The notes: generated by a model from the letters alone, not told the origin. A DNA stretch of 64,000 nucleotides from a virus (IMGVR_UViG_3300046804_004438:32001-96000); one strand, 5' to 3'. Counted from the first letter of the stretch, positions 17,438-24,242 are shown. Program-made: numbers and translations.

Positions 17438-17679
17438 ATATGAAGTCTTCCTGACTTTCTGACAAGGTTTAGATTCTCTGCCTCTAGTTGTAGCTTTGCC
17501 TTGAGAACAGTACTTTGTTTAATAATAGATGCAGCTGTCTCTACCTCGATGTTGTTTGTCTCACAATAGTGAACGACGGCATCAACATATGACAGACCAT
17601 TGAGACCTGCTATCCTATCAATCTCTTTTACAAATTCTGAAACAAACTCAGATGATGATTTTACTTTACCTATTCTCAT
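17434..17679 (-). CDS. gp33: late-transcription coactivator gp33
   Basis: YVDAVVHYCETNNIEVETAASII..LKAKLQLEAENLNL. Confidence 0.88.
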   Translation of the reverse strand: MRIGKVKSSSEFVSEFVKEIDRIAGLNGLSYVDAVVHYCETNNIEVETAASIIKQSTVLKAKLQLEAENLNLVRKSGRLHI

Positions 17680-18842
17680 GAATCCAACTTCTTGTATGCT
17701 AGGGTTACATTTGTTCCACCAAAACCAAATGAATTGTTGAGAACAACATTTTGTTTTTTGTTTAATAGAGATATGGGAAGAATAATGTTTAGTGAAATGG
17801 TAGGATCTTGTTGATCAAGATGCCAGTTTGGAATTACACTATTGGTCTCTAGTGATGTTATACATGCAAGTGTTTCTATTGCACCAGCTGCTCCAAATAA
17901 ATGACCATGCAATGATTTAGTAGAGCTTACAGGAATATTATTTGTATGACTACCAAACAACTGCTCTATGCTTTGAAGTTCGACAAGATCACCCATCTGT
18001 GTTCCTGTACCGTGTGCGTTGATATATGTAACATCAGAAAGTTCAAAGTCTTTGATCGATTGTTTCATACATTGAACCTGACCTTCAACATTAGGTTTAG
18101 TTACAGACTCGCTTCCATTTGATATTCCGTAACCAACGATCTCACAATATATCTTTGCACCTCTATTAACTGCACTATTATATTCCTCTAGTACGAATAT
18201 AACAGAACCTTCTGACATTGTAATTCCATCTCTGTTCTTAGAAAATGGCTTACAATCAGAACTCAGTGCACCCATTGCCTTCCAATAAGCAAACTGCAAC
18301 TGATTGATGCATGCTTCGGAACCTCCGGCAACCAATACCTTGTGCTCACCATATGCAATCTTCTTATATGCTTCACCAATTGCAGTAGAAGAAGAAGAGC
18401 ATGCTGTGGAGTATGTTATTGCAGGTCCTTTGATTTGATCTTTGAGTGCAATGAAGTTTGCACCCATGTTAACAACTGAACAAACCAATGCTGTTGGTTT
18501 GACCTTGCCTTTTGCAAATAATGATCTGTAAGCTTCTTCATATGCTAATGCACCACCACCATATCCAACACCAAGAAATATACCCTCTGGATAGTTGTTA
18601 CTATCAAAGATTGCATCCTTATACGATAACCATGCTAGTCTTGTAAATCTGTCTGTTATGTTTAGATCATATCTATCAAAGTGCTGATCAATGTGTGTAA
18701 GTTGATCTACGACATACGCACTACTATCAAATTGATCTACTTTTGAACCTTTAGTACCATTTAGAAAACTATCTCTGACTGTTTGATAGTTGTTTCCTAA
18801 AGGTGTCCTACAACCAATACCAGTAATAACTACTCGGTTCAT
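17676..18842 (-). CDS. beta-ketoacyl-ACP synthase (FabF/FabB/NodE family)
   Basis: RVVITGIG; catalytic Cys in STACSSS; His in INAHGTGT and STKSLHGH; NSFGFGGTN. Confidence 0.93.
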   Translation of the reverse strand: MNRVVITGIGCRTPLGNNYQTVRDSFLNGTKGSKVDQFDSSAYVVDQLTHIDQHFDRYDLNITDRFTRLAWLSYKDAIFDSNNYPEGIFLGVGYGGGALAYEEAYRSLFAKGKVKPTALVCSVVNMGANFIALKDQIKGPAITYSTACSSSSTAIGEAYKKIAYGEHKVLVAGGSEACINQLQFAYWKAMGALSSDCKPFSKNRDGITMSEGSVIFVLEEYNSAVNRGAKIYCEIVGYGISNGSESVTKPNVEGQVQCMKQSIKDFELSDVTYINAHGTGTQMGDLVELQSIEQLFGSHTNNIPVSSTKSLHGHLFGAAGAIETLACITSLETNSVIPNWHLDQQDPTISLNIILPISLLNKKQNVVLNNSFGFGGTNVTLAYKKLDS

Positions 18843-19093
18843 TTTTTATCAATGTTGTTGTATAGAAAATCTATTAGTTGATCAATTGTTTCTGTTTGTT
18901 GTTGAACAGTGATATTCAATTTGAGTTTATCTTCAAGTTCTGAAATGAATGTAATAATTTCCAAAGAATCTAACTTCTCATTTATGTTTTGTAGATCTTT
19001 TAACAAAAAGCTACCATCAAAAGAATTAAGATCAATATTGTATTCTTTTTTAAATTGATCAAATACTATCTGTCTTACTTGATCTCTTGTCAT
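18839..19093 (-). CDS. acyl carrier protein
   Basis: 84 aa acidic protein with LDSLEIITFISELED phosphopantetheine-Ser motif; ATGA-coupled to the ketosynthase. Confidence 0.85.
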   Translation of the reverse strand: MTRDQVRQIVFDQFKKEYNIDLNSFDGSFLLKDLQNINEKLDSLEIITFISELEDKLKLNITVQQQTETIDQLIDFLYNNIDKK

Positions 19094-19109
19094 ATCACTA
19101 CTCCATAAA

Positions 19110-19408
19110 AAAGGTGGAGAGATTCTGTTTCCAAGCTCTCTCCGGGCTCATGCTTAAGCAGCAAGTGCTAAGCTAGGTGCAAAGTTATCGTTTGCATTTA
19201 GTTTTGTTGCATCAGTCTCAGGTCAGCCTTTACTACACCTGTCGATCCTGTTTCGTCCCCATCAAAAGCATATCCCTTGCCACTATCTCATCCGCTAGCA
19301 GGACTATTGAGACCAACGTCAAGGGTTGGCGGATATGCTTATGGTGGAGACGCCGGGTACCGCCCCCGGGTCCAGAATGTTTATTCTACTTCCGTCAACG
19401 ACATCAGC
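19110..19408 (-). ncRNA. ssrA: two-piece (circularly permuted) tmRNA
   Basis: acceptor piece GACCCGGGGGCGGTACCCGGCGTCTCCACCA ends at 19342; about 81-nt intervening hairpin; coding piece starts GGGGACGAAACAGGATCGAC at 19260; tag ANDNFAPSLALAA* at 19195-19154. Confidence 0.93.
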
Positions 19409-19412
19409 ATTA

Positions 19413-22120: not shown

Positions 22121-22545
22121 TCTTTAATAAATCCTGGGATAGCTTCATTAACAATGTCTTTGGTAATCCCTTTGAAGGGACATTTCTTATCTTTCATACT
22201 TAGAAGAAGTTTAGCATCATCTGCATTTATTCTTTCCAGTACATCGATAAAGATTTGCTCTCTTCTTATCTGTTTAAGATTAGGATTGCCACCTTCCACA
22301 AACAAATAGAATCGAGAAACTTCTTGGATGAATGCTTTTGGTTCATCAAACTTACTTTCCTTGTAAGGAGGTACACCTTCTGGAAGTAAAAATTTTAAAT
22401 CAGGATCAAACCAAGCGGCCAAAACCGTACGAACAGTAAGATTATTAATTTCTCTGAGAGCCTTGACTCGATCTTCTTTCTTTTTTATTTCACTTATTTT
22501 TGCAAATGTCTTTGCTACAGAATCCATCTTATATTGAACTGGCAT
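22117..22545 (-). CDS. conserved T4-like hypothetical protein
   Basis: LPEGVPPY..RREQIFIDVLE..DAKLLLSMKDK, commonly found next to rnh. Confidence 0.7.
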   Translation of the reverse strand: MPVQYKMDSVAKTFAKISEIKKKEDRVKALREINNLTVRTVLAAWFDPDLKFLLPEGVPPYKESKFDEPKAFIQEVSRFYLFVEGGNPNLKQIRREQIFIDVLERINADDAKLLLSMKDKKCPFKGITKDIVNEAIPGFIKE

Positions 22546-23402
22546 TAGAAATCACCTATGTTTTCCATCATGTTTTTGAGTTTGAAATTAATGAAGTAAT
22601 TAAACAGCTTACTTTTATCCTTACCTTGTTCGTTAATATATTTATTAAGAACTTCTGTTCTGATACTTTCAGGAACCATTGAGAGATCAACCATGTGTTT
22701 ATTACGCATAAAGTTTCTGTCAATTTGGCTATCTAGTAACACTGCACCATCATTATAAATCTTATTTATTTTCTTTTGGGTAAGAGGCTTCTGACGCTTG
22801 TCTGAAACAAACGTATCATCATCTGAAAGCACGTTTGGAATTCCGTCTCCAGCATCACCTTTAAGAATATGCTCCAACAAGAAGCGCTCAGGGTTATCGT
22901 GATTGATCCACTTCTTTCGAACAGGATCATACTGTTTGACATTATTAAAAGTCTGGAGCTGCACAAAGTCCTTGTCACCAGAAAGTATCAATATACTTTC
23001 ACCATAGTTCAAATCCTTGCCAAATTTGTTGACAAGTGAAGCTATAATGTCATCTGCTTCGGCAGATTCTACCTGAATGACACGATAAGGGAAGTTTTCT
23101 TTGATCTCTAGTTTGATCTTATTGAAGATCTCAAACACCTGAGTCCAGTTGATCTCAGACTCTTCTCTGTTCTTTTTGCGATTGGCTTTGTAGTAAGGAA
23201 AGATCTGCTTACGCCAATAGTTCTTGTCATCACATGCAATTACCATCTCACCATATTGATCACCAAACTTCTGTTTGTATGAACGTAGTGAGTTAATAAC
23301 CATATGACGAAACAATCCCTCTTCGATAGGAATGTTTGTGTGATTTCCCAACTGCATCATCAAGTTGGAAATCATTACTTGGTTAAAATCAACTATTATC
23401 AT
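22545..23402 (-). CDS. rnh: T4-type RNase H / 5'-3' exonuclease
   Basis: IIVDFNQ..WRKQIFPYYKANR..EADDII..SGDKDFVQL..GDAGDGIPN. Confidence 0.95.
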   Translation of the reverse strand: MIIVDFNQVMISNLMMQLGNHTNIPIEEGLFRHMVINSLRSYKQKFGDQYGEMVIACDDKNYWRKQIFPYYKANRKKNREESEINWTQVFEIFNKIKLEIKENFPYRVIQVESAEADDIIASLVNKFGKDLNYGESILILSGDKDFVQLQTFNNVKQYDPVRKKWINHDNPERFLLEHILKGDAGDGIPNVLSDDDTFVSDKRQKPLTQKKINKIYNDGAVLLDSQIDRNFMRNKHMVDLSMVPESIRTEVLNKYINEQGKDKSKLFNYFINFKLKNMMENIGDF

Positions 23403-23451
23403 GTTAAAGGTTCCACCTAATTTATACTATATTAATTATATAGTCTATCGA

Positions 23452-23808
23452 TTAAGTGTTCAACAGTTTTTCTTCTATCAAATTGTCAATTTGACTACGA
23501 GCATCAGGTGTTAAAGTCACAACAGTATCTGCCAATTCTTGGAATGAATGATTAAGATTTTTTGTAGAATATACCATTGCTTTGATGGCTTCTTCTACAA
23601 AAACAATATACTTTACATTCTGTTCATCTGGCTTTACAGTGATTCCATATGATGCTAGAACGGAAAAAGCAGCTTCCATCACATCAGAACATACTTCATC
23701 ACAATAGTCTCTTCTGACTTCTTCGATATGTTCGTACGATTGTTCAATTGATATTGGAAAATTTTCAGCGCTTAATTTATTTGGAAATTTTACTATATTA
23801 TCCATCAC
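23452..23808 (-). CDS. hypothetical protein
   Basis: 118 aa ORF, DNIVKFP N-terminus. Confidence 0.6.
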   Translation of the reverse strand: MMDNIVKFPNKLSAENFPISIEQSYEHIEEVRRDYCDEVCSDVMEAAFSVLASYGITVKPDEQNVKYIVFVEEAIKAMVYSTKNLNHSFQELADTVVTLTPDARSQIDNLIEEKLLNT

Positions 23809-23849
23809 TGTGCCTTGTAAGAGGGCATATAATATTATTTATCATTATT

Positions 23850-24242
23850 TTAAACGCTCTCTATGATTACCGAGGCAATTGCGAGGTCTTTTTCATCTGA
23901 TATTGACAATTGAATATTATATGTTTTATCTTTACCTACTAAAAGAATTAATTTAGTTAGAGCCTGATTCTTTAAAACTAGTATAGGCATTCCGTTGTCA
24001 TAGTTTTTAACTGTAATGTCTGTAGGAACAACATCGACAAAACCTGTACCAAGAGCCTTGACAAATGCTTCTTTTGCTGCATACCTTTTTGCATAAAAAG
24101 CTGCTGGTTTCATCAAACCAGCAGCCTCAGCTTGTTCTTCTTTTGTAAAGATGGTGTCTATAAATTTCTGGCCATACACACTACCAATTGATTCTTGAAA
24201 TCTACTGATCGTGCAAATATCGACACCATGACCAACAATCAT
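23850..24242 (-). CDS. acpS: holo-ACP synthase (4'-phosphopantetheinyl transferase)
   Basis: MIVGHGVDI..IFTKEE..AKRYAAKEAFVKALGTG..GMP..LSISDEKDLAIASVI. Confidence 0.93.
   Translation of the reverse strand: MIVGHGVDICTISRFQESIGSVYGQKFIDTIFTKEEQAEAAGLMKPAAFYAKRYAAKEAFVKALGTGFVDVVPTDITVKNYDNGMPILVLKNQALTKLILLVGKDKTYNIQLSISDEKDLAIASVIIESV

What the first reader, a model, noticed from the sequence alone, without database searches (positions are those of the whole stretch)
17676..24242. Phage-encoded acyl-assembly set: ACP + ketosynthase + AcpS
Seen: an ACP with DSL serine (18839-19093) is ATGA-coupled to a ketosynthase with intact Cys-His-His triad (17676-18842). The chain of ATGA overlaps continues into gp33, a 2OG-Fe(II) oxygenase and gp59, so these are integrated phage genes and not host contamination. 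A dedicated AcpS sits about 5 kb away. Known: AcpS activates ACP, and ACP+KS pairs such as rhizobial NodF/NodE make specialised acyl chains using host FAS II enzymes. Inference: the phage runs its own carrier and condensing enzyme to make a special lipid or polyketide. Possible uses are membrane or lipid A remodelling, acylation of virion or glycan, or bypass of host ACP that is sequestered or sensed by defences. The adjacent oxygenase could tailor the product. No acyltransferase or reductase is visible in this window.
Basis: partly seen in the sequence, partly recalled or inferred. Interest (0 to 1): 0.85.

Follow-up and report, generated by a model that had tools for sequence, protein, structure and literature searches.

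The report
Phage private acyl-carrier and ketosynthase pair
An uncultured freshwater T4-like phage carries its own acyl carrier protein, a chain-extending ketosynthase and the enzyme that activates the carrier; this is a stripped-down form of a lipid gene cassette that recurs in many uncultured phages and whose product is still unknown.

Summary
On the minus strand, an 84-aa ACP (18839-19093) overlaps by ATGA a 388-aa ketosynthase (17676-18842) with its catalytic Cys, two His and Lys intact. ATGA overlaps continue into gp33, a 2OG-Fe(II) oxygenase and gp59. An AcpS lies at 23850-24242.

These are phage genes. The same order recurs in independent viral contigs. Contigs from three freshwater studies cross the junctions with no differences.

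The KS fails NCBI's FabF cut-off. It belongs to a virus-only clade (support 100/100) that groups with cellular ACP-coupled KS pairs (99/94), then with NodE (98/92).

Three points of that reading do not hold:
- The oxygenase is not a conserved partner.
- AcpS is found in only 4 of 11 lineages.
- Nothing indicates a polyketide.

The conserved third member in 8 of 11 lineages is a DesA/SCD-type membrane desaturase. None is found in the 68% of this genome that is held. No reductase, dehydratase, FabD, acyl-ACP ligase or PlsC-type acyltransferase was found.

Most likely the pair is a host-dependent elongation branch on a private carrier. One paper lists fabF and desaturase in freshwater pelagimyophages, only in passing. 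This scan had already found the fuller cassette on other DNA.

The parts
18839..19093 (-). Private acyl carrier protein (84 aa). It is the first gene of the minus-strand run, with a GGAG ribosome-binding site upstream and a K-L-D-S43-L attachment motif.
   Evidence: Translation. Pfam PP-binding scores 19.7 bits, below cut-off. A profile of phage orthologues hits only ACPs in the PDB, best 4e-9. K40, D42, S43 and E54 are invariant. The AF2 model has pLDDT 85 with Ser43 at the N-terminus of helix II, and its fold matches are all carrier proteins. The RBS was read.
17676..18842 (-). FabF-like beta-ketoacyl-ACP synthase (388 aa) of a virus-specific, NodE-related clade. Its start codon overlaps the ACP stop codon (ATGA).
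   Evidence: Pfam N and C domains. C148, H277, K309 and H314 are invariant. Best PDB matches: FabF 242 bits, FabB about 172, actinorhodin KS 150. TIGR03150 scores 333 bits against a 494 cut-off. Trees. dN/dS 0.09-0.10. ATGA overlap.
23850..24242 (-). Holo-ACP synthase (AcpS, group I phosphopantetheinyl transferase, 130 aa). It is ATGA-coupled to the upstream 366-aa phage gene of unknown function.
   Evidence: PF01648 at 6.6e-12. TIGR00516 scores 71.4 bits, above its 59.8 cut-off. D8, R14, E58 and K62 are visible in the translation. Orthologues lie at the same site in L001 and L004. dN/dS 0.17-0.25.
16724..17437 (-). Context only: a 2OG-Fe(II) oxygenase between gp33 and gp59. It is translationally coupled to them but is not a conserved partner of the module.
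   Evidence: PF13759 at 1.1e-9 and phrog_81 at 2.6e-24. Absent at this position in L002, L003, L004 and L010. Paralogue at 33522-34106.
17434..17679 (-). Context only: gp33 late-transcription co-activator, ATGA-coupled to the KS. It anchors the module in the phage core.
   Evidence: PF16805 at 2.7e-16 and phrog_254. Overlap read.

Best explanation
The ACP and KS form a phage-owned acyl-chain elongation branch of the NodF/NodE type. The phage AcpS attaches phosphopantetheine to Ser43 of the private ACP. The host malonyl-CoA:ACP transacylase loads malonate onto it. The phage KS condenses an acyl primer with that malonyl-ACP. Host FabG, FabZ and FabI finish each round.

The result is a pool of acyl chains on a carrier the phage controls, with chain length set by the phage KS. 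Host acyltransferases then most likely pass these chains into envelope lipids (phospholipid or LPS) of the infected cell.

This window holds the reduced form of a cassette (ACP, DesA/SCD-type desaturase, KS, sometimes AcpS) that recurs in uncultured freshwater T4-like phages and in at least one other large-phage group. In those relatives the chains are also desaturated.

Shown: the gene identities, intact catalytic residues, coupling, conservation, purifying selection, phylogenetic position, and absence of the tested FAS families from the records held. Inferred: loading by host FabD, use of host reductive enzymes, the fate of the product, and the benefit to the phage.
For: - Gene identities and intact active sites.
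- ACP and KS are ATGA-coupled. They are adjacent or bracket a desaturase in 10 of 11 viral lineages; in the eleventh (L018/L019) a third desaturase paralogue adds to the spacing.
- The KS clade is virus-only (100/100). It is sister to cellular ACP-coupled KS pairs in non-housekeeping contexts (99/94), and NodE is next (98/92).
- Sequence signatures agree with the tree. C(K/R)PFS is shared by the viral clade, the sister group and NodE. TKP is shared by the viral clade and the sister group.
- The best cellular identity found was 39% or less.
- Purifying selection: dN/dS for KS is 0.09-0.10, like gp32; ACP 0.07-0.30; AcpS 0.17-0.25.
- PF13561, PF07977, PF00698, PF00501 and PF01553 are absent from this record and from T4-like relatives, so host enzymes are needed.
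- Relatives carry one to four DesA/SCD-like desaturases in the operon or genome. These are classical membrane-lipid enzymes.
- Phage desaturases are reported to be active (PMC5776448).
Against: - There is no biochemical or expression evidence.
- The ACP is very divergent (22.7 bits against NCBIfam ACP, cut-off 66). Its recognition by host FabD, FabG, FabZ and FabI is assumed, not shown.
- Bulk membrane remodelling does not obviously need a private carrier, and DesA-type enzymes normally act on phospholipids rather than acyl-ACP. The private ACP may therefore point to a dedicated product.
- This genome shows no desaturase in the 68% that is held.
- AcpS is missing from records that are 82-85% complete, so it is not essential to the module.
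- Only some acyltransferase families were tested.
Confidence: 0.45

Rival explanations
1. The pair makes a dedicated product, as NodF/NodE strictly do. It would build a special acyl chain that is not destined for bulk membrane lipid. Possible fates are acylation of a glycan, LPS or lipid A made by the phage's own sugar-modifying genes, acylation of a virion or host protein, or a diffusible acyl signal.
For: - The KS belongs to the NodE-related clade of ACP-coupled ketosynthases, not to housekeeping FabF.
- The carrier and its activating enzyme are private and strongly diverged.
- The same genome carries GT1, GT25, two NDP-sugar dehydratase/epimerases, two methyltransferases and a radical SAM enzyme.
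- From my own knowledge: membrane desaturases that act on chains tethered to a dedicated ACP are known (JamB/JamC, TtuB/TtuC).
Against: - No acyltransferase, thioesterase or ligase that could deliver the chain to a special acceptor was found.
- The sugar genes lie 35-45 kb away and are not syntenic with the module in relatives.
- The desaturases of relatives look like ordinary DesA/SCD delta-9 enzymes.
Confidence: 0.25
2. The genes simply replace or boost host function. The phage supplies extra FabF and ACP activity, plus AcpS, to keep ordinary fatty-acid synthesis running after host gene expression is shut off.
For: - The best PDB and NCBIfam matches are FabF.
- The gating motif NSFGFGGTN and the catalytic residues are FabF-like.
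- The genes sit in the early/middle replication block.
- fabF-type genes are listed as viral auxiliary genes in surveys (PMC10653327, PMC7029224).
Against: - The KS scores far below the FabF equivalog cut-off (333 against 494 bits).
- It sits on a long virus-specific branch of 1.15 changes per site.
- It has several deletions relative to FabF.
- The ACP barely matches AcpP models.
- A plain booster would be expected to resemble the host genes.
Confidence: 0.15
3. The genes interfere with host lipid synthesis. An over-expressed KS or carrier would jam host fatty-acid synthesis and redirect acetyl-CoA, ATP and NADPH to phage replication.
For: Only general knowledge, recalled and not checked here: over-produced FabF blocks fatty-acid synthesis in E. 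coli, and apo-ACP inhibits glycerol-phosphate acyltransferase.
Against: - All catalytic residues are conserved under purifying selection.
- Some lineages carry an AcpS, which makes holo-ACP.
- The module is regularly linked to desaturases, which argues for making a product.
Confidence: 0.05
4. The genes are host DNA, present through contamination or a chimeric assembly.
For: In isolate-phage records, the only KS and AcpS matches (30-35% identity) are host DNA in phage-labelled records.
Against: - The genes form an ATGA chain with gp33 and gp59.
- The same order is found in more than six independent viral contigs.
- GC content is the same as the rest of the phage.
- Contigs of three independent studies bridge the junctions with no differences.
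- No cellular homologue above 39% identity was found.
Confidence: 0.01

Closest known systems
NodF/NodE of rhizobia (dedicated ACP plus dedicated ketosynthase)
   Same: The ACP gene lies immediately upstream of the KS gene and abuts it; the same layout was seen in the fetched nodFE loci. There are no reductase or dehydratase genes of its own, so it depends on the host FAS II. The KS is phylogenetically nearer to NodE than to housekeeping FabF or FabB and shares the C(K/R)PFS motif.
   Different: Identity to NodE is only about 32%. There is no nod context and the carrier is encoded by a virus. The closest cellular relatives are uncharacterised ACP-KS pairs, for example in Polynucleobacter and Gallionella, not NodE itself. 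The product is unknown.
fabF and stearoyl-CoA desaturase genes listed for freshwater pelagimyophages (group PMP-D, 'fonsimyophages'; Zaragoza-Solas et al. 2020, PMC7029224)
   Same: These are freshwater T4-like phages carrying a fabF-like gene; the habitat matches. Relatives L011, L018 and L019 show the same fabF plus desaturase combination next to gp33, gp59 and gp32.
   Different: The paper gives one sentence and mentions no ACP, AcpS, operon structure or phylogeny. This genome has LPS, transport and radical-SAM genes that the paper says PMP-D lacks. It shows no desaturase.
Phage ACP-desaturase-KS (plus or minus AcpS) cassette, found by earlier follow-ups of this scan on other phage DNA
   Same: Same KS clade and same private ACP. 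L011 even has a miniature AcpS directly upstream of ACP-desaturase-KS.
   Different: Here the desaturase is missing from the locus and from the 68% of the genome that is held. AcpS lies about 5 kb away in another transcription unit.
Virus-encoded fatty-acid desaturases (vFADs) of cyanophages and sea-ice phages (PMC5776448, PMC7300359)
   Same: They are auxiliary lipid genes in aquatic phages. The desaturases in relatives of this phage are of the same delta-9 SCD/DesA type, with His boxes HRYFAH, HRAHH and HNNHH.
   Different: Those papers mention no ACP or ketosynthase, and this window has no desaturase.
Housekeeping FabF (KAS II) with AcpP
   Same: Same fold, catalytic Cys-His-His-Lys and gating GFGG motif. 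FabF gives the best PDB matches.
   Different: The KS is below the TIGR03150 and NF005589 cut-offs and about 22 residues shorter, with four deletions. It is not in a fab cluster and lies outside the FabF branch in the tree.

Membership tests
Beta-ketoacyl-ACP synthase (thiolase-fold elongating KS) | N- and C-terminal ketoacyl-synthase domains | tested here: met
   PF00109 at 4.6e-38 and PF02801 at 4.7e-32, both full length.
Beta-ketoacyl-ACP synthase (thiolase-fold elongating KS) | Catalytic Cys, two His and Lys, plus the GFGG gating loop | tested here: met
   C148, H277, K309 and H314 are invariant in 21 clade members. NSFGFGGTN aligns with the same motif in FabF.
FabF (KAS II) equivalog | Score above the curated NCBIfam cut-off | tested here: not met
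   TIGR03150 scores 333.5 bits against a 493.75 cut-off. NF005589 scores 329 against 387.
FabF (KAS II) equivalog | Placement inside the housekeeping FabF branch | tested here: not met
   The viral clade groups with ACP-coupled orphan KS pairs and NodE (99/94 and 98/92). FabF and FabB lie outside.
NodF/NodE-type dedicated ACP-KS pair | Dedicated ACP gene directly upstream of, and coupled to, the KS, with no reductive enzymes of its own | tested here: met
   ATGA overlap. No PF13561, PF07977 or PF00698 in the record. nodFE loci show the same layout.
NodF/NodE-type dedicated ACP-KS pair | KS is orthologous to NodE and makes polyunsaturated chains for Nod factors | tested here: not met
   The relation to NodE is sister-group only, at about 32% identity, and there are no nod genes. 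The chemistry cannot be tested here.
Acyl carrier protein (PF00550) | Pfam gathering score | tested here: inconclusive
   19.7 bits against a 20.8 cut-off for the single sequence. Orthologues in G005 and G006 pass.
Acyl carrier protein (PF00550) | Four-helix bundle with the D-S-L serine at the N-terminus of helix II | tested here: met
   AF2 model with pLDDT 85, helices at 3-18, 31-36, 43-56 and 70-81, and Ser43 at the start of helix II. Top fold matches are all carrier proteins, TM 0.65-0.80. A profile search of the PDB gives only ACPs.
AcpS (group I phosphopantetheinyl transferase) | Score above the curated cut-off and a size of about 120-130 aa | tested here: met
   TIGR00516 scores 71.4 bits, above 59.8. 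PF01648 matches at 6.6e-12. Length is 130 aa.
AcpS (group I phosphopantetheinyl transferase) | Transfers phosphopantetheine to the phage ACP | not testable with these tools
   This needs an in vitro assay or mass spectrometry.
Phage ACP-desaturase-KS cassette | Private ACP and KS of the viral clade in one operon | tested here: met
Phage ACP-desaturase-KS cassette | Membrane FA_desaturase (PF00487) in the operon | tested here: not met
   No PF00487 match in the 110-kb record, which is 68% complete. None in near relative G001, 69% complete. Present in L004, L005 and L011 to L020.
Type II polyketide synthase | KS-alpha paired with a chain-length factor, placed in the PKS branch | tested here: not met
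   There is a single KS and no second KS-like gene. The Streptomyces KS-alpha and CLF fall outside the clade.

The most novel reading that the evidence does not exclude
Phages own an insulated acyl-carrier system: a private ACP that co-evolves with a private AcpS and a NodE-like KS. It would build a chain the host does not make, in relatives an unusually unsaturated one, on a carrier invisible to host regulation. The product would be a dedicated envelope modification or signal, for example an LPS or glycan acylation that blocks superinfection, rather than bulk membrane lipid. A weak hint: ACPs of lineages with an AcpS stay more alike (83% and 56% identity) than the ACP of the AcpS-less lineage L002 (44%), although the L002 KS is closer (76% against 69%).
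Probability: 0.2. Interest if true: 0.8.

Novelty: new variant of a known kind. Interest (0 to 1): 0.55.

Why it matters
Phage auxiliary lipid genes are so far known mainly as single desaturases. Here, and in relatives, phages carry a carrier protein, its activating enzyme and a condensing enzyme. Together these are the minimal parts needed to run a separate acyl-chain line on top of the host's fatty-acid synthase.

The KS forms a virus-only clade with no close cellular member among the genomes sampled. It is found in at least two unrelated phage groups in fresh water, so it appears to be an established viral gene set rather than a recent pick-up.

Finding its product would show whether phages remodel host membranes or LPS, or make their own lipid compounds. 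It would also give a compact, testable ACP/KS/AcpS trio for enzymology.

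Tried and rejected
- PHROGs has no family for the KS, ACP or AcpS.
- Searches of isolate-phage records with the KS and AcpS gave only host DNA in phage-labelled records, at 30-35% identity. No cultured phage with this module was found.
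- No RNA holder was listed for the stretch, so expression could not be examined.
- Naming the host from AcpS relatives failed. The cluster look-ups carried no organism names. The 12 phage tRNAs were listed but not followed up.
- The 247-aa protein at 53189-53932 has homologues beside or near the KS in L011 and L013. It has no family match and recurs in only two lineages, so I did not count it as part of the module.
- An iterative search with the miniature AcpS of L011 found no further copies upstream of other ACPs.
'No close cellular relative' therefore holds only for what was sampled.
- The residue aligned with E. coli FabF Ile108 is Tyr here (Phe or Ala in other clade members). From memory, a bulky residue there shortens the acyl pocket. 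The alignment has an indel at that spot and I could not verify the numbering, so this stays a lead.
- I did not run a complex prediction for ACP with KS or AcpS. Textbook carrier-enzyme pairs pass by likeness to solved structures, so a pass would not change my odds.

Full report
**Observation**

The minus strand between 15 and 26 kb reads as follows:
- gp32, 15177-16094
- gp59, 16155-16727
- a 2OG-Fe(II) oxygenase, 16724-17437
- gp33, 17434-17679
- a ketosynthase, 17676-18842
- an ACP, 18839-19093
- a PD-(D/E)XK exonuclease, 19872-20573
- PhoH, 20512-21363
- RNase H, 22545-23402
- AcpS, 23850-24242
- a conserved 366-aa phage gene of unknown function, 24239-25339

The 366-aa gene and AcpS overlap the same way. 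The ACP has a GGAG ribosome-binding site.

**Gene identities**

KS:
- It has full-length KS N and C domains.
- It carries C148, H277, K309 and H314 and the NSFGFGGTN gating loop. The four catalytic residues are invariant in 21 clade members.

ACP:
- As a single sequence it is weak: Pfam 19.7 against 20.8 bits, NCBIfam 22.7 against 66.
- A profile of ten phage orthologues finds only carrier proteins in the PDB.
- The K-x-D-S motif and E54 are invariant.
- An AlphaFold model (pLDDT 85) gives four helices with Ser43 opening helix II. Its fold matches are all carrier proteins.

AcpS:
- It passes the curated TIGR00516 cut-off.
- It shows D8, R14, E58 and K62. That these are the functional positions is from my memory of B. 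subtilis AcpS.

**These are phage genes, not contamination**

The window lies in a 110-kb IMG/VR record, estimated 68% complete. Its core genes are T4-like. gp32 is about 55% identical to cyanomyophage gp32. The primase is about 44% identical to those of cyanophages and Sinorhizobium phages.

Runs holding the stretch are freshwater metagenomes from three studies. Their contigs cross several gene junctions. The oxygenase/gp33, gp33/KS and KS/ACP crossings have no differences, and the AcpS/366-aa gene crossing has one.

**Relatives**

The KS has about 75 database clusters at 46-87% identity and 380-399 aa. Identity then drops to 42% or less for cellular FabF of about 410 aa.

IMG/VR holds 16 contigs of the clade, making 11 lineages when the window is counted. 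In all of them an ACP orthologue lies just upstream of the KS wherever the contig reaches that far.

Desaturase:
- In L011, L012, L013, L014-L016/L020 and L017 the order is ACP, a membrane FA_desaturase of about 250 aa, then KS, with overlapping stops and starts.
- L018/L019 has three desaturase paralogues.
- L004/L005 has the desaturase after the KS.
- These desaturases are of the DesA/SCD type, with His boxes HRYFAH, HRAHH and HNNHH.
- The window's sub-clade (window, L001, L002/L003, L010) has ACP-KS only.
- No PF00487 match exists in this record or in G001, which is 69% complete.

AcpS:
- It occupies the same site in the window, L001 and L004.
- It appears as a miniature gene directly upstream of the ACP in L011.
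- It is absent from G001 (69% complete), G006 (82%) and G007 (85%).

Other points:
- The L012-L016 contigs (GC 45-47%, up to 364 kb) share nothing else with the window, yet carry a tail fibre and an endolysin. The module therefore sits in at least two phage groups.
- The 2OG-Fe(II) oxygenase is missing at this position in L002, L003, L004 and L010. It belongs to a common phage family and has a paralogue at 33522-34106.

**Phylogeny**

PDB matches rank FabF (242 bits), then FabB (about 172), then actinorhodin KS (150). The KS fails the FabF equivalog cut-off.

I built a careful IQ-TREE tree of 50 sequences after leaving out two long-branch rows. It gives:
- the viral clade, support 100/100, on a stem of 1.15;
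- its union with cellular ACP-coupled KS, 99/94;
- NodE as the next sister, 98/92.

Housekeeping FabF, E. coli FabB, other IMG/VR KS genes and a type II PKS KS all fall outside.

The cellular sister members that I inspected are dedicated ACP-KS pairs in non-fab contexts. In Polynucleobacter the pair lies beside a fatty-acid hydroxylase and a hydrolase. In Gallionella it lies beside an RND pump.

Motifs agree with the tree. C(K/R)PFS replaces the FabF ASRP(W/F)D loop in the viral, sister and NodE sequences.

**Selection**

| Gene | dN/dS (against near relatives) |
|---|---|
| KS | 0.09-0.10 |
| gp32 | 0.08-0.10 |
| ACP | 0.07-0.30 |
| AcpS | 0.17-0.25 |

dS is partly saturated.

**What is missing**

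None of the following was found in this record, G001, G005 or G007:
- FabG-type SDR (PF13561)
- FabA/FabZ (PF07977)
- FabD (PF00698)
- AMP-dependent ligase (PF00501)
- PlsC-type acyltransferase (PF01553)

G006 has one AMP-binding gene, far from the module. Each phage has a single ACP.

**Mechanism**

Taken together, the pair works like NodF/NodE: a private carrier plus a private condensing enzyme that borrow the host's FabD, FabG, FabZ and FabI. AcpS supplies the holo-carrier.

Because DesA/SCD-type desaturases are the usual third member, I favour envelope-lipid chain remodelling (0.45). The alternatives are a dedicated non-membrane product (0.25), a plain booster (0.15) and interference with host synthesis (0.05). 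The private and strongly diverged carrier is the main argument for the dedicated-product rival.

**Literature**
- Zaragoza-Solas et al. 2020 list 'fabF, stearoyl-CoA desaturase' for freshwater pelagimyophages in one sentence (PMC7029224).
- Phage desaturases are described in PMC5776448 and PMC7300359, without any ACP or KS.
- fabF and acpP appear in viral gene lists and prophage predictions (PMC10653327, PMC8224337, PMC11705849).
- I found no functional study of a phage ACP/KS/AcpS set.

**Earlier notes of this scan**

Follow-ups on other genomes had already described the AcpS-ACP-desaturase-KS cassette in T4-like freshwater phages. I reached the same picture from my own searches before reading them. 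What is particular to this window is the reduced, desaturase-less form with AcpS in a separate unit.

**Verdict**

This is a new variant of a known kind: a viral auxiliary lipid module that works like NodFE. Interest is moderate to good.

Noticed in passing
window 53189-63814: A block of sugar- and LPS-modifying genes: GT25 (53917-54768), two NDP-sugar dehydratase/epimerases (57242-58276, 61993-62931), two Methyltransf_24 genes (58276-58911, 60591-61205; the latter also has a weak TylF match) and a radical SAM enzyme (59487-60578). A GT1 gene lies at 27677-28606.
   Followed up: partly
window 49119-50835: A PstS-like phosphate-binding protein (49119-50042) next to an outer-membrane beta-barrel protein (50191-50835). 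This suggests a Gram-negative host and a phosphate-uptake auxiliary gene.
   Followed up: no
window 43099-45651: An 850-aa protein with a weak cytidylyltransferase-like N-terminus and a DUF5872 C-terminus. Its cytidylyltransferase part matches genes of cyanophages and of a Stenotrophomonas phage (36-45% identity in the rows listed).
   Followed up: no
window 53189-53932; L011:4014-4724; L013:13858-14505: A hydrophilic 247-aa protein with no family match. It has homologues directly after the KS in L011 and 2.7 kb after it in L013. A possible loose associate of the module.
   Followed up: partly
L019:7438-11784: A relative carries ACP, three DesA-type desaturase paralogues, the KS and then a PF10118 metal-dependent hydrolase in one run. 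The 286-kb record G006 holds four desaturase copies.
   Followed up: partly
L011:1391-1732: A miniature AcpS-like gene (113 aa, 20 bits against PF01648) lies directly upstream of ACP-desaturase-KS. The activating enzyme can therefore be inside the operon.
   Followed up: partly
window 18839-19093 against L001, L002, L004, L010: The ACP diverges out of step with the KS. L002 has KS at 76% but ACP at 44% identity, while L004 has KS at 69% but ACP at 56%. The lineages with an AcpS keep more similar ACPs. The sample is too small to test.
   Followed up: partly
window 19094-19671: The 580-bp stretch upstream of the ACP is conserved in L001 and L002 at the level of a plus-strand ORF (19177-19458). 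That ORF's translation looks unlike a real protein. Public contigs show several length variants here. It may be regulatory or an RNA.
   Followed up: no
window 37655-41135: A Pirin/cupin gene (37655-38278) followed by two collagen-repeat proteins (38288-39496, 39507-41135).
   Followed up: no
L006:10372-11790 (genome 106372-107790): A DUF7788/DUF2828 (TROVE/Ro-like) protein beside a cluster of nine tRNA genes, just beyond the window's end.
   Followed up: no
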